From IMG/VR virus record IMGVR_UViG_3300044646_000553: a stretch of 64,000 nt of DNA; one strand, 5' to 3'. This DNA is from an uncultured virus (IMG/VR IMGVR_UViG_3300044646_000553) (lineage: Duplodnaviria; Heunggongvirae; Uroviricota; Caudoviricetes). Below are positions 1 to 63,277 of the stretch, piece after piece. Every line of letters begins with the position of its first letter. Positions within the stretch are counted from its first letter, which is position 1. The position numbers and the translations under genes are program-made. The notes under the pieces are model-generated. The model saw only the letters and a list, made by a program, of their open reading frames with translations. It did not search any database and was not told the DNA's origin.

Positions 1-200
1 TCTTCCCATTCTTCCCACCGTTCTTCCCATTCTTCCCATTCTTCCCACCATTCTTCCCGTTCTTCCCATTCTTCCCATTCTTCCCACCGTTCTTCCCATT
101 CTTCCCATTCTTCCCACCATTCTTCCCGTTCTTCCCATTCTTCCCATTCTTCCCACCGTTCTTCCCATTCTTCCCATTCTTCCCACCATTCTTCCCACCA
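1..200 (+). repeat. Coding tandem repeat TTCTTCCCA with a 69-nt higher-order period
   Basis: 9-nt unit with an occasional extra CCA/CCG. CCG variants recur at 18, 87, 156 and at 57, 126 (69-nt spacing). Confidence 0.95.
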
Positions 201-245
201 CGCTTTGGAGGATGCGACTGCGTCTGTAATGGACTCTGTGTCTAA
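1..245 (+). CDS. 3' end of an ORF truncated by the window edge: (FFP/FFPP)n low-complexity region followed by RFGGCDCVCNGLCV*
   Basis: Frame starting at nt 3 gives 66 consecutive codons that are only Phe (39, all TTC) or Pro (27), then RFGGCDCVCNGLCV and TAA at 243-245. Point variants in the repeat are synonymous in this frame (CCA/CCG) and the extra unit is a whole Pro codon. Missing from the ORF track because no start codon lies in the window. Confidence 0.85.
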   Translation, partial: FPFFPPFFPFFPFFPPFFPFFPFFPFFPPFFPFFPFFPPFFPFFPFFPFFPPFFPFFPFFPPFFPPRFGGCDCVCNGLCV

Positions 246-247
246 CA

Positions 248-256
248 TGGTATACT
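248..256 (+). promoter_or_regulatory. Extended -10 promoter (TGGTATACT)
   Basis: TGn-TATACT directly after the stop at 245. AAGGAG SD precedes ATG 281. Confidence 0.6.
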
Positions 257-280
257 TTATTAAAATAAAAGGAGATAAAA

Positions 281-727
281 ATGTATAGTGCAATAGTAAA
301 AAATGATGATCAAACCTGGGATATATTTTTTGATTTTAATTATTATTCAATGGTTAGGTTGTCATCCCTAAAAGAAGCATGGGATAGCGAATTGCCTATA
401 GTTCCTATGGAAATAACTGCATACAAAAACACAGCGTTGATAGGTGCTTTCTGGGACGGATCTTCTTTTTCTGGAGGTCATGAGTTAGATGACATACACT
501 ATAAAGCGCTACCAGATACAGTAGAGTTTTGGGAATCTCATAAAGTTTACGGATTTTTGTGTGATAATGTTTTGATTGCTATGATAGTTACAACAAATGA
601 TACAGATTTTGCAGAACTTGTTGCTGCTGCTTTTGAAGGAGAAGTTAAATTTATTAAGCATGAAGGGCTTCCTTTTGGCAAAAGCATTAAGTATAATACT
701 GAAACGAGAGAGAGTTCTTTAGCATAA
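281..727 (+). CDS. Hypothetical protein
   Basis: 148 aa, good SD. Contains IGAFWDGSSF, a motif type common in small phage fibre-associated proteins. No firm family. Confidence 0.75.
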   Translation: MYSAIVKNDDQTWDIFFDFNYYSMVRLSSLKEAWDSELPIVPMEITAYKNTALIGAFWDGSSFSGGHELDDIHYKALPDTVEFWESHKVYGFLCDNVLIAMIVTTNDTDFAELVAAAFEGEVKFIKHEGLPFGKSIKYNTETRESSLA

Positions 728-745
728 ATTATTATTTACTATTTG

Positions 746-754
746 TGATATAAT
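746..754 (+). promoter_or_regulatory. Extended -10 promoter (TGATATAAT) for the first dioxygenase operon
   Basis: Consensus TGnTATAAT in the 52-nt gap before ATG 780. Confidence 0.65.
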
Positions 755-779
755 ATATACATAGAGTAAAGGAAAAAGT

Positions 780-1493
780 ATGACAATTTATGATGAAAAT
801 GAAACTCCATGGTTTACTAAAGATAGATCAGAAACATCACTAAATAGGTATTCATCAAGGAATATCGGCAACAACATCTTGGTTGAAAATCCAGCCCTAG
901 GAATTAATTTATACAGAAATGTATTTTCAAAAGAAGATTCTGAAAGATATATTAAAATTCTTGAATCTAATTTAGGCGGTAATGGCAAATACAAATGGTC
1001 AGAGGCAAAAGTAACCAACTCTGATGTTCCAATCAAAAAGGCTAGAGATGCTGTAGACTTTAGATTTAAGCAAGAAAACTTAGGTCCAAGAGACGAACAC
1101 AATGCTGAACTTTTAGACTTACATGAAGAAATATATCAAAAGTTAAAGTTTTGCGTTGATGATTATGCACGGTATTGGGGAATAAATGTCATATACTATG
1201 AAGCCTTTAACTTTGTAAAATATGAAGGAGAAGGAACACACTTCAACATTCATGCAGACCATGGACCAATGTATAACTGTACAGTGTCTGCCGTTGTCTA
1301 TATAAATGAAGATTACGAGGGGGGAGAGATTAGATTTCCGAGAATGGATAACTACACTCATACTCCAAAAATAGGAGACATTGTTCTTTGTCCATCTAAC
1401 TATATTTATGAGCATGCATCTTTGCCAATGAAAGAAGGAACTAAATATTGTGTTGTCGTAATGACAGACATTAATGAACTGGGACACAAGTAG
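780..1493 (+). CDS. 2OG-Fe(II) dioxygenase, prolyl 4-hydroxylase-like
   Basis: HAD...YINEDYEGGE...EHAS...TKY: HxD...H triad with Lys at the 2OG-binding position. Confidence 0.9.
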   Translation: MTIYDENETPWFTKDRSETSLNRYSSRNIGNNILVENPALGINLYRNVFSKEDSERYIKILESNLGGNGKYKWSEAKVTNSDVPIKKARDAVDFRFKQENLGPRDEHNAELLDLHEEIYQKLKFCVDDYARYWGINVIYYEAFNFVKYEGEGTHFNIHADHGPMYNCTVSAVVYINEDYEGGEIRFPRMDNYTHTPKIGDIVLCPSNYIYEHASLPMKEGTKYCVVVMTDINELGHK

Positions 1494-2260
1494 TGTCTTT
1501 GGTTGCTAGGTTTCGATCATTTAGGCCCTGGTTAAATAAAGAAGATATCTCTGTTCCTGTTCCTACACAAAAAGAAATCCCAGATTGGTACAAAGATGCA
1601 GATAGATTTGCAAAAATGCCAAACGGAGAATACTATAAAGCAACAAAAGAGGTTTGTCCATTTCCCAAAGAAGGAACAACAGATGACTATGGAAAAATCC
1701 CAACATGGAAAGCGTGTCCTGCAATTATGGATGCGTTTGCGACAGGATATGTATTTAAAACTCCTTGTGATCTAACATTTGCTAAAAATTCTCAGGGAAT
1801 AATTAATGTAACAATTAATGACCCTAAGTATAAAGACTTTTGCACACAAAGACCTCCAATGCCACAATTCGAACATCCAAAAGGATACTACCAACACCAT
1901 TTTGCCTGGAGTTCTCCGTGGGGCCTAGAACTTCCAGAAGGATATAGTGCATTATTTATGACTCCAATGAACAGGTTTGATCTTCCATTTTTAAATACAA
2001 CTGGAATTGTTGACTCTGACAAAGTTCATCTTCTTGGAAGTTTTCCATTTTTTATTGCAGATGGTTGGGAAGGCACTATTCCAGCAGGAACCCCATATTT
2101 GCAAGTCCTTCCATTTAAAAGAGAAAATTGGGATCATGATATAGAGATTTCAGATCAATCTTCTATATATGGTAAAATGGTAGATAACGCAAAGTTCTAT
2201 CGTCAACCTGACGGGGGCGTATATATTAAAAAAGTTTGGTCACGCAGAGAGTATAAATAG
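1493..2260 (+). CDS. DUF6065-like protein (possible dUTPase-like beta fold)
   Basis: WKACPAIMDAFATGYVFKTPCD, PEGYSALFMTPMN, IPAGTPYLQVLPFKRE. Shares the C-terminal I-x-AGTP-x-x-x-x-x-P motif with ORF 2953. Confidence 0.55.
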   Translation: MSLVARFRSFRPWLNKEDISVPVPTQKEIPDWYKDADRFAKMPNGEYYKATKEVCPFPKEGTTDDYGKIPTWKACPAIMDAFATGYVFKTPCDLTFAKNSQGIINVTINDPKYKDFCTQRPPMPQFEHPKGYYQHHFAWSSPWGLELPEGYSALFMTPMNRFDLPFLNTTGIVDSDKVHLLGSFPFFIADGWEGTIPAGTPYLQVLPFKRENWDHDIEISDQSSIYGKMVDNAKFYRQPDGGVYIKKVWSRREYK

Positions 2261-2269
2261 GAGATACAA

Positions 2270-2953
2270 ATGCAAACATGGACAGATAAAGAAAGTCTTG
2301 GAAATGGAATAACCTGTTATAGAGGGGTTATTAAAAAAGAGTTTGATGTAGTCAATAGGCTTGAAAATACTTTAGGTTCTGTTGCTGGGTACGGAGAGTT
2401 GTCTACAGAAGGTAAAAGATATCACTGGATGCCAGCATATGTTGGTTATCAACAACTTATGCCAGACTACAGAGACTGTGTAGATTTTAAATTTAAAAAA
2501 ACAGACATTGAACAAGATAAAAGTGAAGAGTCTTTAAAGTTGCAGTCTCTTTGGCAGGACATCTATGATGCACAATCTGCAGCAGTAGAGGACTACAGAC
2601 GAGACTACAACATTATGCCACTTAAATATTGGGAAGCCTTTAATTTTATTAAATATGGTCCAGGCCAACACTTTAAAGAGCATCATGATCATGGATACTC
2701 CTACAACTGTACTGTTTCGTTGGTCGCTTATGTAAATGATGACTATGAGGGTGGAGAGTTATTTTTTAGACTACAGGGGTTAAACATTAAGCCAAAGGCT
2801 GGAGATCTTTACATCTTCCCATCTAACTTTATGTATCCTCATCAGGCTATGCCAGTTCATTCTGGAACTAAATACTCTATTGTTACCATGCTTGACTATA
2901 GTAAAAAGTATCATACGCCAGACATGTATGATCCTAAATGGGATAATGAATAG
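2270..2953 (+). CDS. 2OG-Fe(II) dioxygenase, prolyl 4-hydroxylase-like
   Basis: HHD...YVNDDYEGGE...PHQA...TKY. Close paralog of ORF 780 (shared EAFNF-x-KY, YNCTVS and VVM/IVTM-x-D motifs). Confidence 0.9.
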   Translation: MQTWTDKESLGNGITCYRGVIKKEFDVVNRLENTLGSVAGYGELSTEGKRYHWMPAYVGYQQLMPDYRDCVDFKFKKTDIEQDKSEESLKLQSLWQDIYDAQSAAVEDYRRDYNIMPLKYWEAFNFIKYGPGQHFKEHHDHGYSYNCTVSLVAYVNDDYEGGELFFRLQGLNIKPKAGDLYIFPSNFMYPHQAMPVHSGTKYSIVTMLDYSKKYHTPDMYDPKWDNE

Positions 2954-3663
2954 TGTATAACATAATAGTTGAAAAAATGCCAGGGTGTATTTTTGAAATA
3001 AATCCAATGTCAATAAAAAGAGATTGGATGGATGCTACATCAGAAAACCATGCTTATAGATGTTTCCCAGTAACGCAAGCAAATGTCGTTGGCTACAGTC
3101 TTTCTTGTAAAGAGGATATTGAGTTTATTTGGGACGGGATAAACGATCAAACTCAAGATCATGTAACAATATTTAATCCAGAAAGATCATATTCTGGAAG
3201 AGGTCAGTCATCAGTAAGCCTAGACACAGGGTTAATATTTAGAACTATAGAAGAACTCAGCATCCTCACTATAAATCCAGTAAATTATTTTAATGATGAG
3301 TTTGAAACGATGTCATCCTTAATAAGTACTTCTTTTTATGACAACCCCTTGCCGTTAGCAATTAAAGCAAGGTTTGCAAATAAAAGGGTAACAATTAAGG
3401 CTGGAACTCCAGTAGCAACAATAATACCAATATCCTTAACAGGCTTAAACAATACTGAAATTAATATTATAAAGTATCAAGATAATGACAAAAAAAGAGA
3501 GCAAGCAAACAGGTCTTATGGAGAGGCTGCACAAGTTCTTAATTCTTCGGGAGAATGGACAGACTGGTATAGAAACGCTGTAAATGAAAAACAAGAATCT
3601 CTGGGCTCTCATGAAACAAAAACTTTAAAACTCATTGTAAAAGATAGTTCTGGTGAGTTATGA
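2953..3663 (+). CDS. DUF6065 family protein
   Basis: N-terminal RDWMDAT..HAYRCFPVTQAN..GY signature; IKAGTPVATIIPI. Confidence 0.65.
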   Translation: MYNIIVEKMPGCIFEINPMSIKRDWMDATSENHAYRCFPVTQANVVGYSLSCKEDIEFIWDGINDQTQDHVTIFNPERSYSGRGQSSVSLDTGLIFRTIEELSILTINPVNYFNDEFETMSSLISTSFYDNPLPLAIKARFANKRVTIKAGTPVATIIPISLTGLNNTEINIIKYQDNDKKREQANRSYGEAAQVLNSSGEWTDWYRNAVNEKQESLGSHETKTLKLIVKDSSGEL

Positions 3664-4115
3664 GTGAACTAAATCCAACACATGAAGATATAGTAAGCGA
3701 ATATATAAAAAATGCCAAAGAAGGAAAGGTTGGCCATTACATGATAACAGTTGCTAGAGATGGGGAGTCTCCAGTACGGTCTATAATATCATTTGACAAC
3801 ATAGACGAGGCATTTAAAGGTTACTCAATGTATGAAGATGCTGGGTTTGCAAAAGATTATCTTACAGTTTCCCTATATCAGCCATCAGGAATAGTCACTA
3901 CAAAAGTTTTAAAAAGAAATCATGCTGGAGATCCTTCGTTTGTTAGGCAAAATTATATTGATACGGTTGAAGCCTTGCACTCTGTTAAACATAAGTTAAG
4001 CAAAGAAGACTACGAAGAGATGTGTATTAAAATTGTTACCTCATTTGCAAAAGACAACTGGAGATTTAATGCAGACAGGTTTTTAAAACAACTAGAAATA
4101 GAAAGGACATTGTAG
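3660..4115 (+). CDS. Hypothetical protein
   Basis: 151 aa, overlaps the upstream stop. C-terminal FAKDNWRFNADRF motif. Confidence 0.75.
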   Translation: MSELNPTHEDIVSEYIKNAKEGKVGHYMITVARDGESPVRSIISFDNIDEAFKGYSMYEDAGFAKDYLTVSLYQPSGIVTTKVLKRNHAGDPSFVRQNYIDTVEALHSVKHKLSKEDYEEMCIKIVTSFAKDNWRFNADRFLKQLEIERTL

Positions 4116-4126
4116 GATAAACCCTA

Positions 4127-4135
4127 TGATATAAT
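4127..4135 (+). promoter_or_regulatory. Extended -10 promoter, probably leaderless transcript
   Basis: TGATATAAT with ATG 4142 only 6 nt after the hexamer and no SD in between. Confidence 0.65.
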
Positions 4136-4141
4136 CTTATT

Positions 4142-4816
4142 ATGGACAAAGAAAAAGCCACTGTTGTAGTTAGAAAGCCATCGATAACCCCGTCTGGCTG
4201 GTTTGGCGATAGTAAAGATATGATCGTAGAGTTAGAAAACTTTATGACACAAGAAGAGATTGAGTTTTTAGAAAAGGCTGCAAAGTCTTTAACTATTTGG
4301 GATGTAACAGAAAGCCATGTAAACGAAAATGGAACTGTTGTTTATGATTCAGAATACTGGAAAGACAGAGTTGCAACCAGTCCAACACTTAACAAAAATG
4401 ATCCATCAATTGCTCCAGTAATCGCAGGACTTTTTGAAAGGTTAAAGCCTATAGTAGAAGATTTTTATAAAGTAAAGGTTATCCCTACTGGAACAACAAT
4501 TGTAAAATGGCTTCCAGGACAATTTCAAAAACCGCATGCAGACAAAGAGTTGCACGAAGGCCCAGATGCTGGCCTACCAAATGATTTTCCAAACTATGAT
4601 CTTTCAAGTTTGTTTTATTTAAACGATGACTACGAAGGTGGAGAACTATACTTTCCACTGCAAGAAGTGCAGTTTAAACCTAAAAAAGGCGCTGCATACT
4701 TTTTCCCAGGTGACAAGAACTATATCCACGGGGTAACAGAAATTAAAAGTGGTTTAAGATTTACCTGTCCTTTCTTTTGGGAAATTACAGAGCATACAGG
4801 AGATCGAAAGCCATGA
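4142..4816 (+). CDS. 2OG-Fe(II) dioxygenase
   Basis: HAD...YLNDDYEGGE...IHGV...LRF. Confidence 0.9.
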   Translation: MDKEKATVVVRKPSITPSGWFGDSKDMIVELENFMTQEEIEFLEKAAKSLTIWDVTESHVNENGTVVYDSEYWKDRVATSPTLNKNDPSIAPVIAGLFERLKPIVEDFYKVKVIPTGTTIVKWLPGQFQKPHADKELHEGPDAGLPNDFPNYDLSSLFYLNDDYEGGELYFPLQEVQFKPKKGAAYFFPGDKNYIHGVTEIKSGLRFTCPFFWEITEHTGDRKP

Positions 4817-5682
4817 TAGCAATGTCTTCAAAAAGTTTGGATTCTGTTGAGTTGTATCCTAAAATAATTGTGTATAAGAATTTATTTAAAGATATTGCAA
4901 AAACTACAAAATTACTTGAAGAAGAAAGCGAAGACGGTTTGTTTTCGCCATGGACAAAATGGTCTAATTTTGGAGAATATCTCAATCCGTTGTTTAAAAA
5001 TGACCCTTTCCAACTATTAATAGGCATGATAAGAGTAATAAAAACAACAAATTTAAAACAAGAAGAACATAAAAATGCAATATTGGAACTTTATGAAAAT
5101 TTCTATATAGCAACAAAAGACTACGCAAATAGGTTTGATATTGAGATAGATGATCAAAAAATTGTAAAAACACACGAGGGCCAAGACATAAAAGAATGGG
5201 TGATTAATGGTCCATCAATAGCAAGATACAGAACAGACATCACAGATCCAGTTGCAATGACGTATCATTCTGACTATATCCGTGAGCCAATCACTAGTCC
5301 AGGGCATAAATATGTCATAACGGCCCTGACATACTTTAATGATAATTATTCTGGCGGTGAAATTGATTTTATTGTTGATGGAGAAGCCTACATGTATAAA
5401 CCACAGGCTGGAGATGTTTTGGTATTTCCTTCAGGGCATCCACAAATTTTAACTAAAGAGGGAAAGATATACCTACACGGAGTTATGCCAGCGCAAGGTT
5501 TTAAGAAGTATATCTCCAGAATGTATTGGATGAAATACGAACCAGGAGAATCCGCATGGTTTGAACAAGAAGAAAAGTTTGGAAAAGAAGTCTGGAACAA
5601 AATGCAAGAAAAGATTATGGAAGAGTTTAGAAATGCTCATCCAAATAAACATAGTGCTGAAAGGGAGAAAAGAATATCATGA
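4813..5682 (+). CDS. 2OG-Fe(II) dioxygenase
   Basis: YHSD...YFNDNYSGGE...LHGV...KKY. Start moved to ATG 4813 (ATGA overlap with the upstream stop) from TTG 4777. Confidence 0.88.
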   Translation: MIAMSSKSLDSVELYPKIIVYKNLFKDIAKTTKLLEEESEDGLFSPWTKWSNFGEYLNPLFKNDPFQLLIGMIRVIKTTNLKQEEHKNAILELYENFYIATKDYANRFDIEIDDQKIVKTHEGQDIKEWVINGPSIARYRTDITDPVAMTYHSDYIREPITSPGHKYVITALTYFNDNYSGGEIDFIVDGEAYMYKPQAGDVLVFPSGHPQILTKEGKIYLHGVMPAQGFKKYISRMYWMKYEPGESAWFEQEEKFGKEVWNKMQEKIMEEFRNAHPNKHSAEREKRIS

Positions 5683-6428
5683 ATCTAGAAAACAAAAACA
5701 GAATAACTAAAGATATAGTTGTTTATGAAAACTTCATTGATGCAGATACTGCTGAAAAACTTGTAAAAGTTTTAGATAAACATGTCGAGGTTGGAACAAT
5801 CACATGGATGCCAATATCATTCTACGAATCCTATTCTTCTGTATTACCACAAGATGATGATGAGCATGTTATTGCAGAAGGTCTTCCTACTACTATTTTT
5901 TCAGACATGAAGCAGGGGATAATTGAAGCAGTAGCAAGTGTTCATGACCTTGATCCAAAGATAATTTCTCAAATTGGATATCATACTCAAAAGTGGGAGC
6001 CAGGAGCATACGCAAGAAAACATTCCGACAATACCGATGAGCACGGACACTCTGGTGCCTTTACAAGGAGTAGATATGCTGCATTCTTATATCTAAATGA
6101 TAATTTTGAAGGAGGAATGTTGCAGTTCCCAGATCAAGACATAAGCATACAGCCCAAAGTTGGAATGCTTGCTGCATTTGACGGGGGATTTAACAACATG
6201 CACGAAGTAACCCTTATCACTAGTGGAGTTAGATACACCATAGGTTCTTTTTGGGATGATCGAGAAGAAGATGCATACCCACAAGAAGTAAGAGATGCAT
6301 GGGCAGCAGAAATGAAAGAAACTAGAGCGCATCAAGAAATTGAAAGAGCCGAGTGGCAAGAACTCTTAAAACAGGGTTGGAAACTTGATGCTAATGGAAA
6401 TAAATATAAAGCAGATGATTTAAAATGA
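5679..6428 (+). CDS. 2OG-Fe(II) dioxygenase
   Basis: HSD...YLNDNFEGG...MHEV...VRY. Confidence 0.9.
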   Translation: MNLENKNRITKDIVVYENFIDADTAEKLVKVLDKHVEVGTITWMPISFYESYSSVLPQDDDEHVIAEGLPTTIFSDMKQGIIEAVASVHDLDPKIISQIGYHTQKWEPGAYARKHSDNTDEHGHSGAFTRSRYAAFLYLNDNFEGGMLQFPDQDISIQPKVGMLAAFDGGFNNMHEVTLITSGVRYTIGSFWDDREEDAYPQEVRDAWAAEMKETRAHQEIERAEWQELLKQGWKLDANGNKYKADDLK

Positions 6429-7087
6429 ATGTTTTTTTAAAAAAAGAGTTCGATGATGCTGGATATAACACTGAGGTTTTCCATGACCAGGTTTTGTTTA
6501 TTTATGATTTTTTAAAAGACGGAGAGTTAGAAATTTTATGGAACATAATTAATACCACTGACAACGCAGACTGGTCAATAGAGTATACTAAAAATCTTGC
6601 CAGGTTTTGCATGGAAAAATTTGGAAGGGACGATGTTGAAAATTTAATTTCAGAAGGTAAATTTGAAAAAACTCTTGGATGGGAAGATAAAAATCTAGAT
6701 ATTACCAAGAGACCTATAAGCACAGTTCTTCAAAGAAGGCTTGGAGAGTTACTTGAAAAAGCAGACCCATCCCTAGAACTCGCTGGGTTTGGAACTCTTC
6801 AAAGAATGCAAGAGGGCGTTGAACTAAAAGCACATACGGACCAGAATACCGATCCATCAATTAAATATGCTGCTATACTATATATTAATGATGACTACAA
6901 AGATGGAACTTTGTTTTTTTATAACAAAGAGAATTCAGATTTGAGGCCAAAGCCAGGAACCTTGCTTATTTTTCCAGGTAACGAAGAATATGAGCATGGA
7001 GTAAGACATGTTGGAGAAGGTCCTATTCGTTATGTGACTGTAGGATTTATGAAGACAATTGGTTTTTATGAAAATAATAAGTACTAA
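6425..7087 (+). CDS. 2OG-Fe(II) dioxygenase
   Basis: HTD...YINDDYKDG...EHGV...IRY. Confidence 0.9.
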   Translation: MNVFLKKEFDDAGYNTEVFHDQVLFIYDFLKDGELEILWNIINTTDNADWSIEYTKNLARFCMEKFGRDDVENLISEGKFEKTLGWEDKNLDITKRPISTVLQRRLGELLEKADPSLELAGFGTLQRMQEGVELKAHTDQNTDPSIKYAAILYINDDYKDGTLFFYNKENSDLRPKPGTLLIFPGNEEYEHGVRHVGEGPIRYVTVGFMKTIGFYENNKY

Positions 7088-7098
7088 GGAGAAATACT

Positions 7099-7728
7099 AT
7101 GGAAAGAGAAATACTTGAAGAAAAGGTCTACTATTACACAAACGTAATTGAAGACCCAAAGAAACTTGTTGATGCAATTGAAAATGACAACAAAGATCCT
7201 TGGGGTGAATGGATGGCGTGTAGTGGAGAAGCGTATGTTTATGGAACAGATAAAACCATTGCTCTAACTTCAGATGCTGATGAAAAAAATAAGTATATCT
7301 ATAATACCTTACAAAAAGCATTTGACGATGTAGCAAGAGACTATGCAAAAGCCCAAGGAATTACAGATGAACCAAAACTATTTCCACAGTATCCAATTAA
7401 AAAGTATCAGCCAGGAACATTTATGGGTGCACACTTTGATCAACAAGAAGGAGACCAAAGACTTAAAGTTTCTTTTGTTATGTATTTAAATGACGATTAT
7501 GAAGGCGGAGAAATTTCTTTTACAATTGCTTCTCCAGAAGGAGTACTAACTCAGCCTAGCCCAGAACCAGATTTTGATGATGCTAAAACTAGAGGAAACT
7601 ATAACTTTTATGTAAAGCCCAAGGCTGGAAGTATAATTGTTTTCCCTCCATCACCACCATATCATCACACCGCACACCTAGTAAAAAGTGGCGAAAAGAT
7701 TATGGTTCCACAGCACTGGATTCATTAA
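7099..7728 (+). CDS. 2OG-Fe(II) dioxygenase
   Basis: HFD...YLNDDYEGGE...HHTA...EKI. Confidence 0.9.
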   Translation: MEREILEEKVYYYTNVIEDPKKLVDAIENDNKDPWGEWMACSGEAYVYGTDKTIALTSDADEKNKYIYNTLQKAFDDVARDYAKAQGITDEPKLFPQYPIKKYQPGTFMGAHFDQQEGDQRLKVSFVMYLNDDYEGGEISFTIASPEGVLTQPSPEPDFDDAKTRGNYNFYVKPKAGSIIVFPPSPPYHHTAHLVKSGEKIMVPQHWIH

Positions 7729-7778: not shown

Positions 7779-7808
7779 GTTTTGCTTTTTGCAAAACACT
7801 GCTATACT
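7779..7808 (+). promoter_or_regulatory. nrdJ promoter (TGCTATACT, 7800-7808) with an inverted repeat over the -35/spacer region
   Basis: GTTTTGC-TTTTT-GCAAAAC at 7779-7797 lies directly upstream of the extended -10. Confidence 0.55.
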
Positions 7809-7845
7809 TAACACTTATTCCGTTTTTGAAAGGACGATACACATT

Positions 7846-9879
7846 ATGTCAGATTTTTTTAGTTTTAGGCTTCCAGAAGACTTTGTAGAAAAGTATATAA
7901 AAGTTGAAAGCCCATTTGGATTTAAAGATGCAGCAGAAAATTCACTTGGAGAAATTACTTTTATTCGTACTTATTCTAGGATGAAGGAAGATGGAACTAA
8001 AGAAAGATGGCACGAAGTTTGTCGTCGTGTAATCGAGGGGATGTATTCAGTTCAAAAGAACCATGCCAAAGAAAACCGTTTGCCATGGAATGACTATAAG
8101 GCTCAGAAGTCAGCACAAGAAGCATACGACAGAATGTTTAATTTAAAGTGGACACCACCAGGTCGTGGCATGTGGGCATTTGGAACCCCTATGACCATGG
8201 AAAAGAAAAACTCAGCAGCATTACAAAACTGTGCAATGGTATCAACGAAAGACCTTGACAAAAATGATCCAGGAGCATTGTTTGCTTGGGTTATGGATGC
8301 CCTTATGCTTGGCATTGGCGTAGGGTTTGATACAGTGGGACAGGATAAAAATTTCTCTATTTATGCCCCCACAGAGCCAGAGCAAATCTTTGAGATTCCA
8401 GACACTCGTGAAGGGTGGGTAGAGTCAGTCAGAGTTTTAATTAATTCATATCTCAGGCCAAATCAGAACATCCAGAAGTTTAACTATGACTTAATTAGGC
8501 CCCTAGGAGCCCCTATAAAGGGTTTTGGCGGGGTTGCATCAGGTCCTGCACCCCTTATCAGGTTGCACAATCAAATAGACCGTGTGATAGGCTCTAGGGC
8601 TGGAGAAACCCTAGATTCTCGTGCTATTGTGGACTTGGTTAATTTAATTGGAACCTGTGTGGTTTCAGGAAATGTTAGAAGATCAGCAACCCTTGCTTTG
8701 GGTAGTGCTGGAGACGATGTGTTTATGAATTTAAAGAACTCTGAGTCATTTCCAGAACGAAACTCTTTTGATCCAGAAAATCCAGGGTGGGCATGGATGT
8801 CTAATAATTCTATCTCAGCAGAAGTAGGAACAAAGTATGAAGACTATGTAGATTTAATTACTGAAAACGGAGAACCAGGTTTTATCTGGCTTGATGTTGC
8901 TCGTAATTATGGACGACTAAAGGATGCGCCAGACGGTAAGGATTATCGTGTGATGGGATTTAACCCATGTGCGGAGCAGCCATTGGAATCATACGAACTA
9001 TGTACACTTGTAGAAGTGCACTTAAATCGTCATGAATCTAAGGAGGACTTCCTGCGTACCCTGAAGTTTGCATACCTTTATGGAAAGACTGTAACACTTG
9101 TTCCAACACACTGGCCACAAACAAACGGTATCATGCAACGTAATCGTCGTATTGGTACATCTCTAACAGGTATTGCATCATTTGCAGATCAAAAGGGTTT
9201 ACCAACCGTTCGTGAATGGATGGACGAAGGATATAATAAAATCCGTCACTATGACCACCAGTATTCAGAATGGCTATGTGTTCGTGAATCAATTCGTGTA
9301 ACAACTGTTAAGCCATCAGGATCAGTTTCAATTCTTTCTGGTGCAACCCCTGGAGTTCACTGGGGACCTGGAGGAGAGTTCTTCCTTCGTGCAGTTCGTT
9401 TTGGGAATACAGATCCGATGATGCATTTGTTTAAAGCAGCGGGGTATACAATTGAAGATGACGTAGTATCAGCAAACACGTCAGTAGTTTACTTCCCAAT
9501 CAAGTCAGGCCATCCAAGATCTGAAAAGGATGTAACCCTGTTTGAGAAGATTGCACTTGCTGCAACTGCTCAAAAGTATTGGTCTGACAATGGTGTTTCT
9601 GTAACACTTTCATTTGATAAGGAGACAGAGTCAAAGCATGTAGTGCCAGCACTGCATATGTACGAGGGACAATTAAAGGCAGTCTCATTCCTGCCAATGG
9701 GAAATCATACATATCCACAACAGCCATATACTCAGATTACTGAAGAGCAATACGAGTCATATATTGGCAAGTTAAAGCACATTGATTTTTCTGCTATTTA
9801 TGATGGAGCAGAAAATCTTGAGGCTCAAGGAGAGTCTTATTGCACAACTGACTATTGTGAAATAAAGATAAACAAATAG
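7846..9879 (+). CDS. nrdJ: Class II adenosylcobalamin-dependent ribonucleotide reductase (monomeric RTPR type)
   Basis: PPGRG, ALQNC, GNVRRSA, GFNPCAEQ (thiyl Cys), TTVKPSG and a C-terminal CTTDYC redox pair. Start ATG 7846 after a GAAAGGA SD. No intein-sized insertion. Confidence 0.92.
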   Translation: MSDFFSFRLPEDFVEKYIKVESPFGFKDAAENSLGEITFIRTYSRMKEDGTKERWHEVCRRVIEGMYSVQKNHAKENRLPWNDYKAQKSAQEAYDRMFNLKWTPPGRGMWAFGTPMTMEKKNSAALQNCAMVSTKDLDKNDPGALFAWVMDALMLGIGVGFDTVGQDKNFSIYAPTEPEQIFEIPDTREGWVESVRVLINSYLRPNQNIQKFNYDLIRPLGAPIKGFGGVASGPAPLIRLHNQIDRVIGSRAGETLDSRAIVDLVNLIGTCVVSGNVRRSATLALGSAGDDVFMNLKNSESFPERNSFDPENPGWAWMSNNSISAEVGTKYEDYVDLITENGEPGFIWLDVARNYGRLKDAPDGKDYRVMGFNPCAEQPLESYELCTLVEVHLNRHESKEDFLRTLKFAYLYGKTVTLVPTHWPQTNGIMQRNRRIGTSLTGIASFADQKGLPTVREWMDEGYNKIRHYDHQYSEWLCVRESIRVTTVKPSGSVSILSGATPGVHWGPGGEFFLRAVRFGNTDPMMHLFKAAGYTIEDDVVSANTSVVYFPIKSGHPRSEKDVTLFEKIALAATAQKYWSDNGVSVTLSFDKETESKHVVPALHMYEGQLKAVSFLPMGNHTYPQQPYTQITEEQYESYIGKLKHIDFSAIYDGAENLEAQGESYCTTDYCEIKINK

Positions 9880-9904: not shown

Positions 9905-12900
9905 ATGTCTACTCCATCAAACCTATACGCAGAAAAGGTGTTTGCAGAACACCCAACAGGTCTTTGGGCTCTTGACGATAATGCAGATTATATTTCTTTA
10001 ATTTCTGAACCACAAAGAAATCTATCTAACTGGACGATTACTGGCGGTACTCATCAAGACTATCCACAGTCAATAGGCGAACCATTCATCAATAGTTATG
10101 TAGGCAAAATTACAGCAACTCCAACTAGCAACGAATCAGCATCGATTGTTGCAATAAGCAATGAGATTATGGATCTGCGAGATATGAGCGATTACTTGGG
10201 AACATTTTCCGTTGGTGGATACTTTTATTCTGAAAGTGCCTATATTGCAGGTTTTGAAATTGGGTATCAATATGAAGATACGACCAGCGGACAGATTGTT
10301 ACACATCTAAAAAATTATGACACCATCATAAACAATAGTTGGGTTTTTATATCAGAAACATTTGATATACCACCAGACGATTCAAAAATACAACTAGTGT
10401 TTAAGATTAATTTTATTGGGGGATCAGAAATAGAAGATGTGTTTTTAATAAACGGAATTACTTTTGGGCAATGGTCAGAAGAGTTTGCATCAACTTCTCT
10501 AGGAACAACCTTAATAGATATTCCTTCAACAATTTCAATTGCTCCACAGAAAGGCCTTGTTGCAAAATGCTATGGATTACAAGAACTTGATGCCTACTAT
10601 TTGGCTTCTGAAAATATGCTTAAAGCAAAAAATTTAAGCATCCCAATGGTTTATGGAGCATCCAGCCTAACAGCATTATATCCAAATGGATCAAATCCAT
10701 CTCTTATAATTCCTGGAGTAGGACTTTTAAATGAGTCTGGAAAATTTAAAGAATACACTCTTGAAACTTGGTTAAGGGTAAACTCTTATACTAATGAAAC
10801 AAAAAAAATCATAGGACCAATCGCTTCGGATGATGGTATATATGTTGACGGTCCAGCGATAGGTCTTAAAGTTGGTAAAGAATATAGAACATATTATGTT
10901 GGAGAGTGGACAAGACCAATGCTCGTTCACTTAAGAATTGGAAAAGATGTTGCGTCTCTTGTCATTAATGGACAAGAAGTTATATCTTTAGGTTATGACA
11001 GAGAAACTATTTCTTTCCCAGAAATGTTAAACGAAAATCAAAAAAATCAGGACTGGATAGGATTTTATACACATGAAGATGTTTATCCAATAGAGATTGA
11101 TTGTGTTGGAATTTACCCATACGTGGTTGCAACCGCTATGGCAAAAAGAAGATTTGTTTTTGGTCAAGGTGTAGAAATACCAGAAAACATTAATACATCA
11201 TATAGCGGAACTTCCGTATTTATTGATTATGCTTTTGCAGATTATACTGCAAACTATTCTTATCCAAAGGTCGGATCTTGGCAACAAGCATTTAACGATA
11301 ACACATCAATTGTTAATAAATCTTTATCTGTACCTTCTGGGCCTCTTCCAGAAATATTTTTGTCATCAAAAACAGAAGAAGAGTTGTTGTCAGATTGCAA
11401 GTTGGCACAGTCATCTGATACAGAAAACTTTTTTTCTTTTAGACCTAACTCAAACTGGGAGTCTGTTTCTGGGTATTTATTTTTTAAAAACTTTGATTTT
11501 TTAAAAACTCCAATATCTGCATTTTATGGTTGTATGAAAATACCAGAGTTATCTCCTACTACTCAGACACTTTTTAGAATTGAAAAAGAAAACACCAATA
11601 GTTATTTTGCAATAGAACTAATCAACAATCAAATATCATACTCTATAAATTATGATGGAGTCTTAGAAACGATATACTCTCCAACTATTGCAGAGCCTGG
11701 AGAATTGATTGATGTTGGGCTAAATATTCCAGCGTTTGTTTCTAGGTTTGGAAATCCAGCCTCAGATTTCTTTGGATCTTTATCAGATTTAAGACTATAT
11801 GTAGGCGGTAAAAAAGACGAAACTTCTACATTTACGGGTAAAATTTATAAGATTGGCTTTTGTACAAAATACAACTTTCAAAAAATTAGGTCATTATTTA
11901 ATGAGATAGGTGTTCCAGTTTGGAACGAAGATCTTTTTGCTGTGTATCAGAACAATCAGTTAATAAATATAGACGGTGGAGTAGACACAACATCAATGTC
12001 ACCACATGGAGGAACAACGGATACGGCTAACGGCGCTATATCTGGAGGTGGTGTTTTTATATCTGATGAAGATTTTCTTATAGATCATGTGGCAAGTTAT
12101 ACTCTTTTGCCAGATGAAATTTTTGATACATACAGTTTAACAGTGTCTGCAAACGCATATTGGGAAGATCAAATTCCGCTAACATATTTTGCTGAATCAG
12201 TTTTAGATAAACGGGGGGATCAGTATTTTGACCTTGATTTTATACAGTTTAATATAGACTATCCAATACCATCAAAAACTATTGCAATAGAAACTGAACC
12301 AGTTGACTGGACATATGCAGAACTTGCTAATGAGTATGGTCTGCCAGTTCAAAGAACTTATGAGTCACTTGATAATTATTTATTTACTGGTTATAATGAT
12401 TATGAAGATCTTAAAAACAAAATAGCAAAAGACTATAGGTATGACACAGATGGAGCAATAGTAAAAACTTATGTTACATTTCAGTATACAGAGTTGGGGG
12501 CAAATCAAACTTCTTTTTATTTTACAAAAACAGAAAGACCTTCTAGAAATGGAATTTTAATTCCTGGCTCAGACTGGATGACTACAAAGTATGAAGTTGT
12601 AGACAATATGATAATTTATCCACCAGTTGGTGTAGACTTTAACGATCTCTCTATAGTTACGCATATTGATATAAATGTTAAAAATTCATCAACTCACAAT
12701 GTCAATATTAAAAAACTTTCTTACGCATCGCAGGCACTAAATGAATCAGACGCAAGTCCAATAGGAACTAGGTTTGGAACCCCTATATACCCATATACCA
12801 AAACTGGAATTTACTATAACTTTAAAAAGAATAATCCATTTTCTATATATACTGGATCATCTCCATATTTGTATCTTACAAAAACAAGTGGTATTCAAGT

Positions 12901-18256: not shown

Positions 18257-18682
18257 ATGGAAAATAATAATAACGAAATGCGATCAATACATGAATTTGT
18301 AGAAGAGCCAGCACAAGCACCAGAGCCAGTACAGGAGCCAGCACAAGCACCAGAGCCAGTACAGGAGCCAGTACAAGCACCAGTAGTTGAGGCACCAGTT
18401 GTCGAAGAACCAGCAGTAGAAGAGCCAGTCCAGGCACTAGGATTTACTAAAACAGGAGCAATTGGTTCAATGGCAGCAGACGGCCCTAAGAAAACTGTTA
18501 AGGTAGATGGTCTTGGAGACAAGGTCGCTATTCACTCAACAAAAAGCGTTTATTGGTCAGAAGTCGGGTCTGTAACTAAAGGTTACAATATTGTAACAAA
18601 ACAACAGGCAGACAAGTGGTTAACTCGCAAACATGTTAGAATTGCAGAACCAGAAGAAGTCAAGAAGGCTTTTGGTTTGTAA
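18257..18682 (+). CDS. Pro/Glu-repeat protein, possibly head-associated
   Basis: EPAQAPEPVQ repeats followed by a compact basic C-terminal domain; located between capsid and adaptor. Confidence 0.75.
   Translation: MENNNNEMRSIHEFVEEPAQAPEPVQEPAQAPEPVQEPVQAPVVEAPVVEEPAVEEPVQALGFTKTGAIGSMAADGPKKTVKVDGLGDKVAIHSTKSVYWSEVGSVTKGYNIVTKQQADKWLTRKHVRIAEPEEVKKAFGL
18305..18383 (+). repeat. 30-nt coding tandem repeat (EPAQAPEPVQ x2.6)
   Basis: GAGCCAGCACAAGCACCAGAGCCAGTACAG exact at 18305 and 18335, partial at 18365. Confidence 0.9.
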
Positions 18683-60181: not shown

Positions 60182-60291
60182 TGCGTATTAAAATTATTAA
60201 GTTTGTAGTAAAGGCTTTAGGCTATGAATGGTCTGGAGATGAACTTAAACTGCCTGTTTGGTATGTGAAGGAAAAGAAAAAGAATAAATAA
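60181..60291 (+). CDS. Small basic protein (36 aa, not in ORF track)
   Basis: MRIKIIKFVVKALGYEW...; TAATG coupling at both ends. Confidence 0.6.
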   Translation: MRIKIIKFVVKALGYEWSGDELKLPVWYVKEKKKNK

Positions 60292-60866
60292 TGAAAATTA
60301 TTGACAATAAAATTTTTATATTAGAAGATTTTATATCTCCTAATACTGCAAGTTTTATTGTAGAAAATTTTTCTAAAGACTTAAAGCCAACACCACACAC
60401 TGGTATTTATGGAAGTATTAGCAATAACGATGAGAATACACATAAAATTTGTGGCAAAAACAAGGTTATAAATTATGATGGAACTAAAGATGTTGCAGTT
60501 GATCTACTTATGAGTCTTTTCCCTAGTATAGAAAAAACAATGTCTGAAATTTTTAAAAAAAATATCGTAATGAAATCCTTTTTTTATAGTCATATGAAAT
60601 CTGGTGGGAAAAACTCTTTGCATTATGACAACCATGAGGATCAGTATACTAATGATTATTCTGGAATACTATATTTAGCAGACAGTTATACTGGAGGAGC
60701 AATAAATTTTCCCAACCAAGACTTAAAATTACATCCAAAGCCAGGAACATTTATATGTTTTCAGGGCACGGAAGACATTCAGCATGAGGTACAAGAAGTA
60801 ATAGACGGAGATAGAGTAAATATTATATGTTTTTTTAAGGAAATGGATATATATGCCAGCATATGA
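60291..60866 (+). CDS. 2OG-Fe(II) dioxygenase (orphan, eighth copy)
   Basis: HYD...ILYLADSYTGG...QHEV...DRV. Confidence 0.88.
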   Translation: MKIIDNKIFILEDFISPNTASFIVENFSKDLKPTPHTGIYGSISNNDENTHKICGKNKVINYDGTKDVAVDLLMSLFPSIEKTMSEIFKKNIVMKSFFYSHMKSGGKNSLHYDNHEDQYTNDYSGILYLADSYTGGAINFPNQDLKLHPKPGTFICFQGTEDIQHEVQEVIDGDRVNIICFFKEMDIYASI

Positions 60867-62995: not shown

Positions 62996-63277
62996 ATGAA
63001 TAAGTATAAATGGAAAGACGATGCTGCATGCCTGGATTATGACACAAATGTGTTTTTTGACAAGTATGAAGAAGATGAATTGCTAAGGCCTGCCGTAGAT
63101 CTGTTATGTTCTACATGTCCTGTAAGAAAAGAATGTTTTTCTGTTGGTATTTCAGGAAAAGAATGGGGAGTTTGGGGCGGGGTATATTTAGAAAATGGAG
63201 AAATATCAAAAGAATTTTCTAGCCACAAGACAAAGACTGACTGGGGAACCACATGGCAATCCCTAACAATGGAGTAA
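62996..63277 (+). CDS. whiB: WhiB-family Fe-S transcriptional regulator
   Basis: W...AAC...FF...CSTCPVRKEC...WGVWGG. Confidence 0.92.
   Translation: MNKYKWKDDAACLDYDTNVFFDKYEEDELLRPAVDLLCSTCPVRKECFSVGISGKEWGVWGGVYLENGEISKEFSSHKTKTDWGTTWQSLTME

What the first reader, a model, noticed from the sequence alone, without database searches (positions are those of the whole stretch)
1..7728. Candidate phage peptide/protein tailoring system: (Phe-Phe-Pro)n-Cys protein beside seven prolyl-hydroxylase-like dioxygenases and two DUF6065-like proteins
Seen: an ORF missed by the track ends in at least 66 residues of only Phe and Pro plus RFGGCDCVCNGLCV. One hypothetical gene later come two operons (promoters at 746 and 4127) encoding seven divergent HxD...H dioxygenases with the Y-x-N-(D/E)-x-(Y/F)-x-(G/D)-G motif, two DUF6065-like genes and another unknown. 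Established: this dioxygenase family includes prolyl 4-hydroxylases that act on Pro-rich repeats (collagen, extensin, algal and viral P4H). Repetitive precursors sitting beside tailoring enzymes are the hallmark of RiPP-type clusters. Inference: the FFP repeat is the dedicated substrate, and the enzymes hydroxylate or otherwise oxidise Pro and Phe at different positions. The product could be a modified virion fibre/coat (possibly later glycosylated) or a RiPP-like peptide. I cannot see the N-terminus of the repeat protein, so whether it is a fibre tail or a short precursor is unknown.
Basis: partly seen in the sequence, partly recalled or inferred. Interest (0 to 1): 0.9.

Follow-up and report, generated by a model that had tools for sequence, protein, structure and literature searches.

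The report
Phage Phe-Pro fibre tail with hydroxylases
An uncultured lake phage, probably of actinobacteria, ends its tail-fibre genes with a protein whose tail is pure phenylalanine and proline, followed by seven collagen-type proline-hydroxylase-like enzymes; tail type and enzyme set are always swapped together among related phages, so the tail is their likeliest but still unproven target.

Summary
Window 3-245 is the 3' end of a real gene. In near-identical contigs it is a 290-aa protein: a conserved N-terminal peptide, two FN3/PKD-like domains, a pure Phe/Pro tract and a four-Cys tail. It is the last gene of the fibre block.

Seven Fe(II)/2OG oxygenases follow, all PF13640 with H-x-D...H intact. 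Their nearest solved relatives are prolyl 4-hydroxylases. Two DUF6065-like proteins, here shown to have a dUTPase fold, and two unknown proteins complete the cassette.

New evidence for a link: synteny is fixed (fibre, repeat gene, cassette, class II RNR) while the cassette varies with repeat type.
- Of 55 distinct FFP-type variants, 54 have at least 4 oxygenases.
- All 42 low-proline variants (FSFTP, FGFTP, FGAFGFSP, a Pro-Val tail) have 0-2.
- Trees of both flanking markers need 7-9 switches. All are concordant, though statistical power is low.
- Phages with 97-98% identical RNR carry opposite kits.
- A second repeat protein 7-9 kb upstream uses the same repeat unit.

No chemistry is shown. 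The RiPP reading is not supported. This scan has noted the same pairing on at least ten other genomes. My literature searches found no description. Iyer et al. 2010 described the analogous Syn9 oxygenase array.

The parts
1..245 (+). 3' end of the FN3-(FFP/FFPP)n-Cys tail gene (frame 3..245, stop at 243-245). The full gene is 290 aa in near-identical contigs.
1..197 (.). Tandem DNA repeat that encodes the F/P tract (9- and 12-nt units; period 69, 2.8 copies, 100% identical). Contigs of relatives often break here.
281..727 (+). Hypothetical 148-aa protein with no family. It is present in only part of the relatives.
746..754 (+). Extended -10-like TGATATAAT upstream of oxygenase 1
780..1493 (+). 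Oxygenase 1, P4H-type Fe(II)/2OG dioxygenase (core orthogroup)
1493..2260 (+). DUF6065-like protein A. dUTPase/dCTP-deaminase-like fold, invariant Cys, G-I-V-D-S-D motif.
2270..2953 (+). Oxygenase 2 (core orthogroup)
2953..3663 (+). DUF6065 protein B (PF19541, 92 bits). It lacks the Asp motif of type A.
3660..4115 (+). Hypothetical 151-aa protein. Its only look-alikes are viral hypothetical clusters.
4127..4135 (+). Extended -10-like TGATATAAT, 6 nt before the ATG of oxygenase 3 (spacing fits a leaderless start; inference)
4142..4816 (+). Oxygenase 3 (core orthogroup)
4813..5682 (+). Oxygenase 4. Its ATG overlaps the stop of oxygenase 3.
5679..6428 (+). Oxygenase 5 (core orthogroup)
6425..7087 (+). 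Oxygenase 6
7099..7728 (+). Oxygenase 7
7789..9879 (+). Class II (B12-type) ribonucleotide reductase. It is the conserved right-hand boundary of the variable cassette (context only).

Best explanation
The cassette at 780-7728 is a phage-encoded protein-hydroxylation kit. Its substrate is the Phe/Pro tract of the fibre-block protein that ends at 245, and of other FFP-bearing virion proteins in relatives.

Proposed course: while virions are built, the seven non-redundant P4H-type Fe(II)/2OG dioxygenases hydroxylate prolines of the polyproline-II-prone (FFP/FFPP)n tract, possibly at different ring positions or sequence contexts. This would change the solubility, stiffness or stickiness of a very hydrophobic stalk at the C-terminal end of an FN3 appendage. 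The two dUTPase-fold DUF6065-like proteins would be helpers of unknown kind.

Shown: gene anatomy, family assignment, intact catalytic residues, and strict co-variation of repeat type with enzyme set.

Inferred: the enzyme-substrate relation, proline as the target residue, the timing, and the effect on the virion.
For: 1. The substrate candidate is real and structural. It is a 290-aa protein that closes the fibre block, directly after a 516-aa fibre-like protein with an Mtd_N domain.

2. All 7 enzymes pass PF13640 and keep H-x-D...H. A profile of the seven hits solved peptidyl-prolyl hydroxylases best:
- B. anthracis P4H, about 1e-11
- P3H1, 4e-10
- PBCV-1 P4H, 8e-8
- PHD2, about 1e-6
- Tet-like, only 2e-4

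3. The seven are old orthogroups kept in the same order across relatives. The core is 1, 2, 3 and 5.

4. Synteny is fixed while cassette content tracks the repeat:
- 54 of 55 distinct FFP-type variants have at least 4 oxygenases. The exception, L149, has 2.
- Of 42 low-Pro variants, 30 have 0, 6 have 1 and 6 have 2.
- Spearman rho is 0.80, not corrected for phylogeny.

5. The states switch repeatedly:
- N-domain tree: 8-9 changes, with 4 of 4 starred pairs concordant.
- RNR tree: 7 changes, with 7 of 7 pairs concordant and 3 of 3 starred.
- Pairs with 97-98% identical RNR have opposite kits.

6. In a sample drawn by DNA pattern rather than similarity rank, 63 of 65 loci with at least 5 kb downstream have at least 3 oxygenases.

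7. The repeat unit is matched between separate genes 7-9 kb apart in 35 of 38 loci. Two of the three mixed cases are threshold artefacts.

8. An unrelated cyanomyovirus, Syn9, also places its oxygenase array and a DUF6065 homologue (hhalign 97%, E 9e-12) directly behind its fibre genes.

9. Precedent: PBCV-1 P4H hydroxylates Pro-Ala-Pro-Lys repeats (PMC3634087, passage read).
Against: - No chemistry, proteomics or structure shows hydroxylation.
- The tract is the 3' end of the gene next to the cassette, so the two could be co-inherited by linkage.
- The sign tests have too few supported pairs to reach 0.05 (p = 0.125 and 0.25).
- F-F-P is not a known P4H motif (recalled).
- The dUTPase fold of DUF6065, the adjacent RNR, and a halovirus homologue that also sits next to an RNR hint at nucleotide chemistry.
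- The window holds two other Pro-rich repeat proteins that could be substrates instead, and an eighth oxygenase far from the tract.
- Syn9 has an array but no F/P repeat.
- One genome, L250, mixes repeat types.
Confidence: 0.55

Rival explanations
1. The oxygenase cassette is an exchangeable accessory module that acts on something other than the FFP tract. Candidates are host proteins, small molecules or secondary metabolites (as Iyer et al. proposed for Syn9), or another phage protein such as the PT-repeat PA14 protein. It travels with the fibre tail only because both lie in one recombination hot spot, or because both are host-specific.
For: - The tract and cassette are physically adjacent.
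- Cassettes are swapped between phages with 97-98% identical RNR, the pattern expected of a mosaic hot spot.
- Syn9 has an array without F/P repeats.
- Iyer et al. 2010 read such arrays as secondary-metabolite tailoring (PMC2938197, passages read).
- Other Pro-rich repeats lie at 55022-56869 and 18257-18682.
- An eighth oxygenase at 60291-60866 sits away from the tract.
Against: - No discordant combination appears in 97 distinct variants, nor in 63 of 65 pattern-sampled loci, although breakpoints between the gene end and the cassette should sometimes occur.
- The second repeat gene, 7-9 kb upstream and outside the hot spot, matches the repeat type.
- No scaffold-building enzyme (NRPS, PKS or similar) was found in the cassette.
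- The closest solved relatives are protein hydroxylases.
Confidence: 0.25
2. The cassette serves nucleotide or DNA metabolism or modification together with the neighbouring class II RNR. The DUF6065-like proteins would be divergent dUTPase or dCTP-deaminase-type enzymes, and the oxygenases would oxidise bases or nucleotides.
For: - DUF6065-like A has a dUTPase/dCTP-deaminase fold. By VIA-align the top 22 rows are all this family (Z 9.1-5.6) and the next unrelated row has Z 4.5. Foldseek gives E 1.7e-4.
- Type A keeps a G-I-(I/V)-D-x-D motif like dUTPase motif III (motif recalled).
- The cassette abuts the RNR.
- In halovirus HF2 the homologue lies next to an RNR.
Against: - The oxygenases are P4H-type, not AlkB or TET/JBP. 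Tet-like matches are 7 orders weaker than P4H, and Pfam Tet_JBP scores E 0.009, below threshold.
- I saw no counterpart of the C-terminal motif V of dUTPases, and type B lacks the Asp motif (motif definitions recalled).
- The same family accompanies the Syn9 oxygenase array, which has no RNR beside it.
- This reading does not explain why oxygenase number follows repeat type.
Confidence: 0.07
3. RiPP-like system: the F/P repeat is the core of a ribosomal peptide natural product that is tailored, cut out and released.
For: - A repetitive sequence sits beside many tailoring enzymes.
- Relatives carry a self-cleaving Hint domain or a Cys-rich knot after the repeat.
Against: - The repeat is the tail of a 290-aa two-FN3-domain protein in the fibre block.
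- The cassette has no leader peptide, recognition element, protease or exporter.
- The same repeat occurs inside proteins of 875-1810 aa.
Confidence: 0.03

Closest known systems
Chlorovirus PBCV-1 prolyl 4-hydroxylase (PDB 5c5t) with that virus's Pro-rich repeat proteins
   Same: A virus-encoded small monomeric P4H-type enzyme with virus-encoded Pro-rich repeats as substrates. The profile of the seven enzymes hits 5c5t at 8e-8. Hydroxylation of Pro-Ala-Pro-Lys repeats is reported (PMC3634087, passage read).
   Different: PBCV-1 is a eukaryotic virus with one enzyme. Here a bacteriophage carries seven to eleven old paralogues in fixed order, an aromatic F-F-P(P) polymer instead of PAPK, added dUTPase-fold partners, and a matched exchange of kit and repeat between relatives. 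No activity is shown here.
Tandem dioxygenase array of Synechococcus phage Syn9 (gp41-gp54), described by Iyer, Abhiman, de Souza and Aravind 2010 (PMC2938197, passages read)
   Same: [quoted passage not shown] Syn9 gp43 is a homologue of the window's DUF6065-like proteins (hhalign 97.4%, E 9e-12). The array lies right after the fibre genes.
   Different: Syn9 is a T4-like cyanomyovirus. Its oxygenases are of mixed families (Oxy_5, Oxy_3, DUF6445) and come with Trp halogenases. It has no F/P repeat protein; its neighbours are Gly-rich. The authors proposed secondary metabolites, not a virion substrate.
Bacillus anthracis P4H (PDB 3itq, 5hv0, 5iax) and animal collagen P4H and P3H
   Same: These are the best sequence matches among solved structures (E about 1e-11; P3H1 4e-10). 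The system logic is also shared: a Pro-rich repeat polymer, hydroxylases, and a C-terminal Cys-rich knot as in some collagens (the collagen knot is recalled).
   Different: There are no Gly-X-Y triplets, so a collagen triple helix is not expected. The repeat units vary between relatives in length: 3/4, 5 and 8 residues.
Mimivirus L230 collagen lysyl hydroxylase/glycosyltransferase (PDB 6ax6)
   Same: A virus that modifies its own repeat (collagen-like) surface-fibre proteins with a 2OG hydroxylase (role recalled). There is a weak sequence match (E 0.013-0.033).
   Different: L230 targets lysine and is fused to a glycosyltransferase, and its host is eukaryotic. Here glycosylation genes are seen only about 7-9 kb upstream in the relative L002.

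Membership tests
P4H-type Fe(II)/2OG dioxygenase (Pfam PF13640, 2OG-FeII_Oxy_3) | Match to the family model above its curated cut-off | tested here: met
   7 of 7 ORFs score 33.4-58.2 bits against a cut-off of 27.
P4H-type Fe(II)/2OG dioxygenase (Pfam PF13640, 2OG-FeII_Oxy_3) | His-x-Asp...His iron triad and a basic residue about 10 residues after the distal His for 2OG | tested here: met
   H158, D160 and H212 are invariant in the alignment of the seven. K or R stands at +10 or +11 in all seven, read from the alignment. The role of the basic residue is recalled.
P4H-type Fe(II)/2OG dioxygenase (Pfam PF13640, 2OG-FeII_Oxy_3) | Peptidyl-proline hydroxylation activity | not testable with these tools
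   Only homology is available. The best solved relatives are prolyl hydroxylases.
DUF6065 (Pfam PF19541) | Match to the family model above its cut-off | tested here: met
   2953-3663 scores 92 bits against a cut-off of 26.6. 1493-2260 has no Pfam hit at E<=0.01 but hits phrog_7084 at 3.7e-35, which 2953-3663 also hits at 7e-8, and aligns with it. It is a relative, not a scored member.
Trimeric dUTPase / dCTP deaminase superfamily | The fold | tested here: met
   AF2 model with pLDDT 91.6. Foldseek top hits are dUTPases (E 1.7e-4). By VIA-align the top 22 rows are dUTPase or dCTP deaminase, Z 9.1-5.6.
Trimeric dUTPase / dCTP deaminase superfamily | The five catalytic motifs, including the C-terminal P-loop-like motif V (definitions recalled) | tested here: inconclusive
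   Only a motif-III-like G-I-(I/V)-D-x-D is seen in type A. Type B has S-L-I-S-T-S there. I saw no motif V counterpart at the C-terminus. There was no formal motif scan.
RiPP biosynthetic cluster | Short precursor with leader and core, plus a recognition element, a protease or an exporter | tested here: not met
   The candidate precursor is a 290-aa FN3 protein in the fibre block. No such domains appear in the cassette.
Collagen / collagen-like protein | Gly-X-Y triplet repeats | tested here: not met
   The tract is only F and P, in units FFP and FFPP.
FN3 / PKD-like Ig-fold appendage protein | Match to the fn3 or PKD models | tested here: inconclusive
   P0001 scores fn3 22.4 and PKD_6 22.7 bits, just under the cut-off of 25. 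Homologues pass (fn3 28.7-36.4 bits in P0024, P0046, P0109, P0119, P0021 and P0010).
Hint / bacterial intein-like domain (relatives only, not the window's copy) | Profile match to inteins or BIL domains, an N-terminal Cys or Ser, and a C-terminal His-Asn | tested here: met
   A profile of 28 C-terminal domains hits the Pho RadA intein at 8.5e-9 and BIL 2lwy at 5e-8. C-I-x-x-D-T starts and V-H-N ends are seen. The window's copy has a 14-residue Cys tail instead.

The most novel reading that the evidence does not exclude
These phages build a post-translationally hydroxylated aromatic-proline polymer. In logic it resembles collagen, extensin or mussel glue: a repeat, a hydroxylase battery and a C-terminal cross-link or Hint cap. 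Several virion proteins of one genome share it. Each of the seven or more conserved paralogues would make a different mark, for example 4-Hyp, 3-Hyp or beta-hydroxy-Phe. Polymer type and enzyme kit would be exchanged between close relatives as one matched set, perhaps to retune adhesion to the host surface.
Probability: 0.3. Interest if true: 0.9.

Novelty: new variant of a known kind. Interest (0 to 1): 0.75.

Why it matters
Tandem 2OG-oxygenase arrays in phages have had no known substrate since they were described in cyanophages. Iyer et al. 2010 proposed secondary metabolites. This phage group offers a concrete candidate that can be synthesised: an (FFP/FFPP)n tract encoded next door. It also offers natural negative controls, because sister phages carry FSFTP, FGF or Pro-Val tails and no oxygenases.

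If the link holds, it would be the first phage-encoded hydroxylation of its own virion protein that I know of. It would extend collagen- or extensin-style chemistry to bacteriophages. It would also give the dUTPase-fold DUF6065 family a functional context.

Tried and rejected
- Whole genome: none is held for this window. The upstream sequence came from near-identical IMG/VR contigs instead.
- Cultured-phage collection: no DNA match in near mode, and only an 83-nt oxygenase match to S-SCSM1 in distant mode. tblastn found no match for the FFP protein or for DUF6065 protein B.
- Co-folding of oxygenase 2 (22-row alignment) with residues 190-260 of the FFP protein: no answer, score 0.01 against a mark of 0.32, so this is neither support nor evidence against.
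- Sequence search of DUF6065-like proteins against solved structures: nothing. NCBIfam gave only weak generic dioxygenase hits.
- The two hypothetical proteins: no Pfam, PHROG or NCBIfam family. The Atlas showed only unnamed viral clusters for 3660-4115.
- 'The ORF is an artefact of a DNA repeat': rejected.
- 'Any Pro-rich tail attracts oxygenases': rejected, because L101, L121 and L124 have long Pro-Val tails and 0 oxygenases.
- First noisy screen for second repeat genes: discarded and replaced by a stricter one.
The two-FN3 call therefore rests on Pfam only.
- Literature: 'DUF6065' is in 0 papers. Searches on phage with prolyl hydroxylase, virion, collagen-like, tail fiber, Hint and Phe/Pro repeat found no description of this pairing. 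Kavagutti 2019 (PMC6802176) has no passage on oxygenase, fibronectin or intein (term search only).

Full report
**What is in the window.**
- The window is part of a siphovirus-like phage genome with all genes on the + strand. I identified a portal (14029), a head protease, a major head protein, a 2924-aa tape measure, a DnaB-like helicase, a primase, a large DNA polymerase and a terminase.
- The portal is 46-47% identical to those of roughly 120-134-kb Streptomyces phages such as Coruscant and Yaboi.
- A WhiB gene lies at 62996-63277. WhiB is used as an actinophage marker (PMC6802176, passages read).
- GC content is 34-42%. I infer a phage of low-GC freshwater actinobacteria. No whole genome is held.

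**The repeat ORF is real.**
- Bases 1-197 are a tandem DNA repeat that is open in all six frames, so openness is no evidence of coding.
- A 52-nt pattern next to the repeat found four near-identical IMG/VR contigs. In three of them the FFP frame continues upstream to an ATG behind AGGAGA and gives one identical 290-aa protein, P0001. The fourth contig, like the window, breaks inside the repeat.
- The window differs from L002 by 26 of 7755 bases downstream of the gene. In the last 245 nt, the three substitutions outside a register shift all fall on codon position 3 of the FFP frame.
- In 174 distinct tracts of relatives the codons are TTC/TTT/TAC and CCA/CCG/CCT/CCC, so variation sits at third positions.
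- P0001 has a conserved basic N-terminal peptide and two FN3/PKD-like domains. The Pfam scores are just under threshold here and above it in homologues. A Phe/Pro tract and RFGGCDCVCNGLCV follow.
- It is the last gene of a fibre block, preceded by proteins of 517, 149 and 516 aa, the last with an Mtd_N domain.
- The family is large: 1161 proteins with E<=1e-3 among the 8000 candidates scored, several on contigs of 108-125 kb.

**The cassette.**
- Seven ORFs pass PF13640, keep H-x-D...H, and are only 17-43% identical to oxygenase 1.
- A profile of the seven matches solved prolyl 4- and 3-hydroxylases best, and Tet-like enzymes far worse.
- Across relatives they form seven orthogroups in the fixed order 1-7. 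Oxygenases 1, 2, 3 and 5 are present even in the smallest cassettes, and extra copies bring the count up to 10-11.
- The two DUF6065-like proteins are distant paralogues.
- The AF2 model of type A (pLDDT 91.6) has a dUTPase/dCTP-deaminase fold by two independent aligners.
- Type A keeps a G-I-(I/V)-D-x-D motif and an invariant Cys. Type B lacks the Asp motif.
The second lies 6 nt before the ATG at 4142, a spacing that would fit a leaderless start (inference).

**Does the cassette belong to the repeat?**
- Three family-based scans of viral contigs gave 203 loci, and the repeat gene was found in 202.
- I dropped truncated genes and loci with under 8 kb downstream and no RNR, then collapsed identical tails. 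This left 97 distinct variants.
- Synteny is constant: fibre, repeat gene, variable cassette, class II RNR, a protein of about 1240 aa, a protein of about 136 aa, portal.
- Only the cassette and the repeat change, and they change together:

| Repeat type | Distinct variants | Oxygenases | Complete cassettes | Cassette length |
|---|---|---|---|---|
| FFP-type | 55 | 4-10 in 54; 2 in L149 | 34 | 5.3-14.9 kb |
| Low-Pro | 42 | 0 in 30; 1 in 6; 2 in 6 | 27 | 0.8-7.0 kb |

- All six low-Pro variants with 2 oxygenases are of the FGFTP type.
- Long Pro-Val tails (L101, L121, L124) come with no oxygenase, so proline richness alone is not the correlate.
- On the tree of the N-terminal domains the FFP state needs 8-9 changes. 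The 4 independent pairs on well-supported branches are all concordant, p = 0.125.
- On the tree of the RNR, which flanks the cassette on the other side, both traits need 7 changes. All 7 pairs are concordant and 3 are supported, p = 0.25.
- Four pairs of phages with 97-98% identical RNR carry opposite kits.
- A sample drawn by a degenerate FFP DNA pattern gave 80 loci with an FFP ORF. Of the 65 with at least 5 kb downstream, 63 hold at least 3 oxygenases. The two exceptions are other FFP-bearing proteins of 576 and 1810 aa, not the FN3 gene.
- In 185,579 species genomes the pattern occurs only on 4 MAG contigs, in bins labelled with four different phyla. The three that hold enough of the gene carry the FN3 domain, and three have oxygenases downstream, so they belong to this phage type.

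**A point against mere linkage.**
- Many genomes carry a second protein with the aromatic repeat 7-9 kb upstream. Its repeat unit matches that of the FN3 gene, down to odd units such as FFSPPGFFAPP, FGFTP, FGVFGFSP and NFY.
- Of 38 distinct two-gene loci, 18 are both Pro-rich and 17 are both low-Pro. Of the 3 mixed, two are threshold artefacts and one (L250) is real.
- Either intragenomic gene conversion or a common trans-acting constraint keeps the units alike. An enzyme kit would be such a constraint.

**What speaks against it.**
- Nothing shows hydroxylation.
- The tests have low power, and the tract is contiguous with the cassette.
- The DUF6065 fold and the neighbouring RNR hint at nucleotides. 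In halovirus HF2 the homologue also lies beside an RNR.
- However, Iyer et al. [quoted passage not shown] Syn9 gp43 is a homologue of the window's proteins (hhalign 97.4%, E 9e-12), and that array has no RNR beside it.
- The Syn9 array lies directly behind the fibre genes and Gly-rich proteins gp36, gp38 and gp39. It has no F/P repeat.
- So the partnership of oxygenase array and dUTPase-fold protein behind fibre genes recurs in an unrelated phage. This favours a virion-protein role over nucleotide chemistry. It also shows that arrays exist without Pro-rich neighbours.
- The window holds other possible substrates: a PA14 protein with about 110 residues of (E/D)PTPEP(S/T) at 55022-56869, and an EPAQAPEPVQ-repeat protein at 18257-18682. 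There is also an eighth P4H-type gene at 60291-60866.

**Verdict.**
- The substrate hypothesis is the best-supported reading (about 0.55) but has no chemical evidence. The RiPP reading is not supported.
- The same pairing was noted by this scan on at least ten other genomes. Those are AI notes, not independent evidence. One of them gave me the lead to the Syn9 paper.
- My literature searches found no description of the pairing.

Noticed in passing
relatives, e.g. L014:6977-7477, L025:4876-5394, L068:10802-11296: In many relatives the repeat is followed by a domain of about 165 aa instead of the Cys-rich tail. A profile of 28 such domains matches inteins and a bacterial intein-like domain (8.5e-9 and 5e-8). 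They start with Cys or Ser right after the repeat and end in V-H-N plus 1-3 residues. This looks like a self-cleaving or self-splicing cap on a fibre-block protein.
   Followed up: partly
relatives, e.g. L035:1636-2916 with 9992-11365; L201:2421-5045 with 9989-11320: A second protein, sometimes a third, 7-9 kb upstream carries the same aromatic repeat unit as the FN3 gene in 35 of 38 distinct loci. L250 is a real mixed case. The repeat type is concerted across the genome.
   Followed up: partly
window 1493-2260 and 2953-3663; L328:18055-18840; L082:5866-6750: DUF6065-like proteins have a dUTPase/dCTP-deaminase fold with an invariant Cys. Homologues are Syn9 gp43, inside its dioxygenase array, and a hypothetical protein of haloviruses HF1, HF2 and the HRTV group, which in HF2 lies next to an RNR.
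   Followed up: partly
window 60291-60866: An eighth P4H-type 2OG oxygenase (PF13640, 8.6e-11) lies far from the cassette, next to a CHAP-domain protein and a small membrane protein.
   Followed up: no
window 55022-56869 and 18257-18682: Two further Pro-rich repeat proteins. One is a PA14-domain protein with about 110 residues of (E/D)PTPEP(S/T). The other is a 141-aa protein just after the head protein gene with EPAQAPEPVQ repeats. Both are alternative hydroxylase substrates.
   Followed up: no
window 62996-63277: A WhiB-family gene (8e-12). Together with the Streptomyces-phage-like portal it points to an actinobacterial host.
   Followed up: partly
window 4127-4142 and 746-780: TGATATAAT ends 6 nt before the ATG of oxygenase 3, a spacing that would fit a leaderless mRNA. 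Eight of the nine TGNTATAAT sites in the window are on the + strand, several of them in intergenic gaps (18230, 22781, 59304).
   Followed up: no
L045:10997-13246: In a FAFTP/YSFTP-type relative the cassette holds no oxygenase. It has a DUF6171-like protein, a weak sulfotransferase-like protein (E 1.3e-4, 22.6 bits against a cut-off of 22, no single stretch passing) and one DUF6065-like protein. The cassette may be a tailoring slot whose content fits the repeat.
   Followed up: no
L002:216-3092: About 6-9 kb upstream of the FFP gene in the near-identical relative lie a weak O-fucosyltransferase-like ORF, an NAD-dependent sugar epimerase/dehydratase and an unknown ORF. These are possible glycosylation genes.
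   Followed up: no
L101, L121, L124 (tails of about 290 aa): Some relatives have a short FGF repeat followed by a long (Pro-Val/Pro-Gln)n tract and a Cys-containing end, with no oxygenase in the cassette.
   Followed up: no
L205-L208: The only four matches to the FFP DNA pattern in 185,579 species genomes are MAG contigs binned to Luteolibacter, Bacteroidetes, Beijerinckiaceae and Acidimicrobiaceae. They look like phage contigs binned by mistake.
   Followed up: partly
window 23160-31934: The 2924-aa tape measure protein has an endolysin-like stretch near its C-terminus (residues 2736-2804, phrog_380, 1.9e-7).
   Followed up: no
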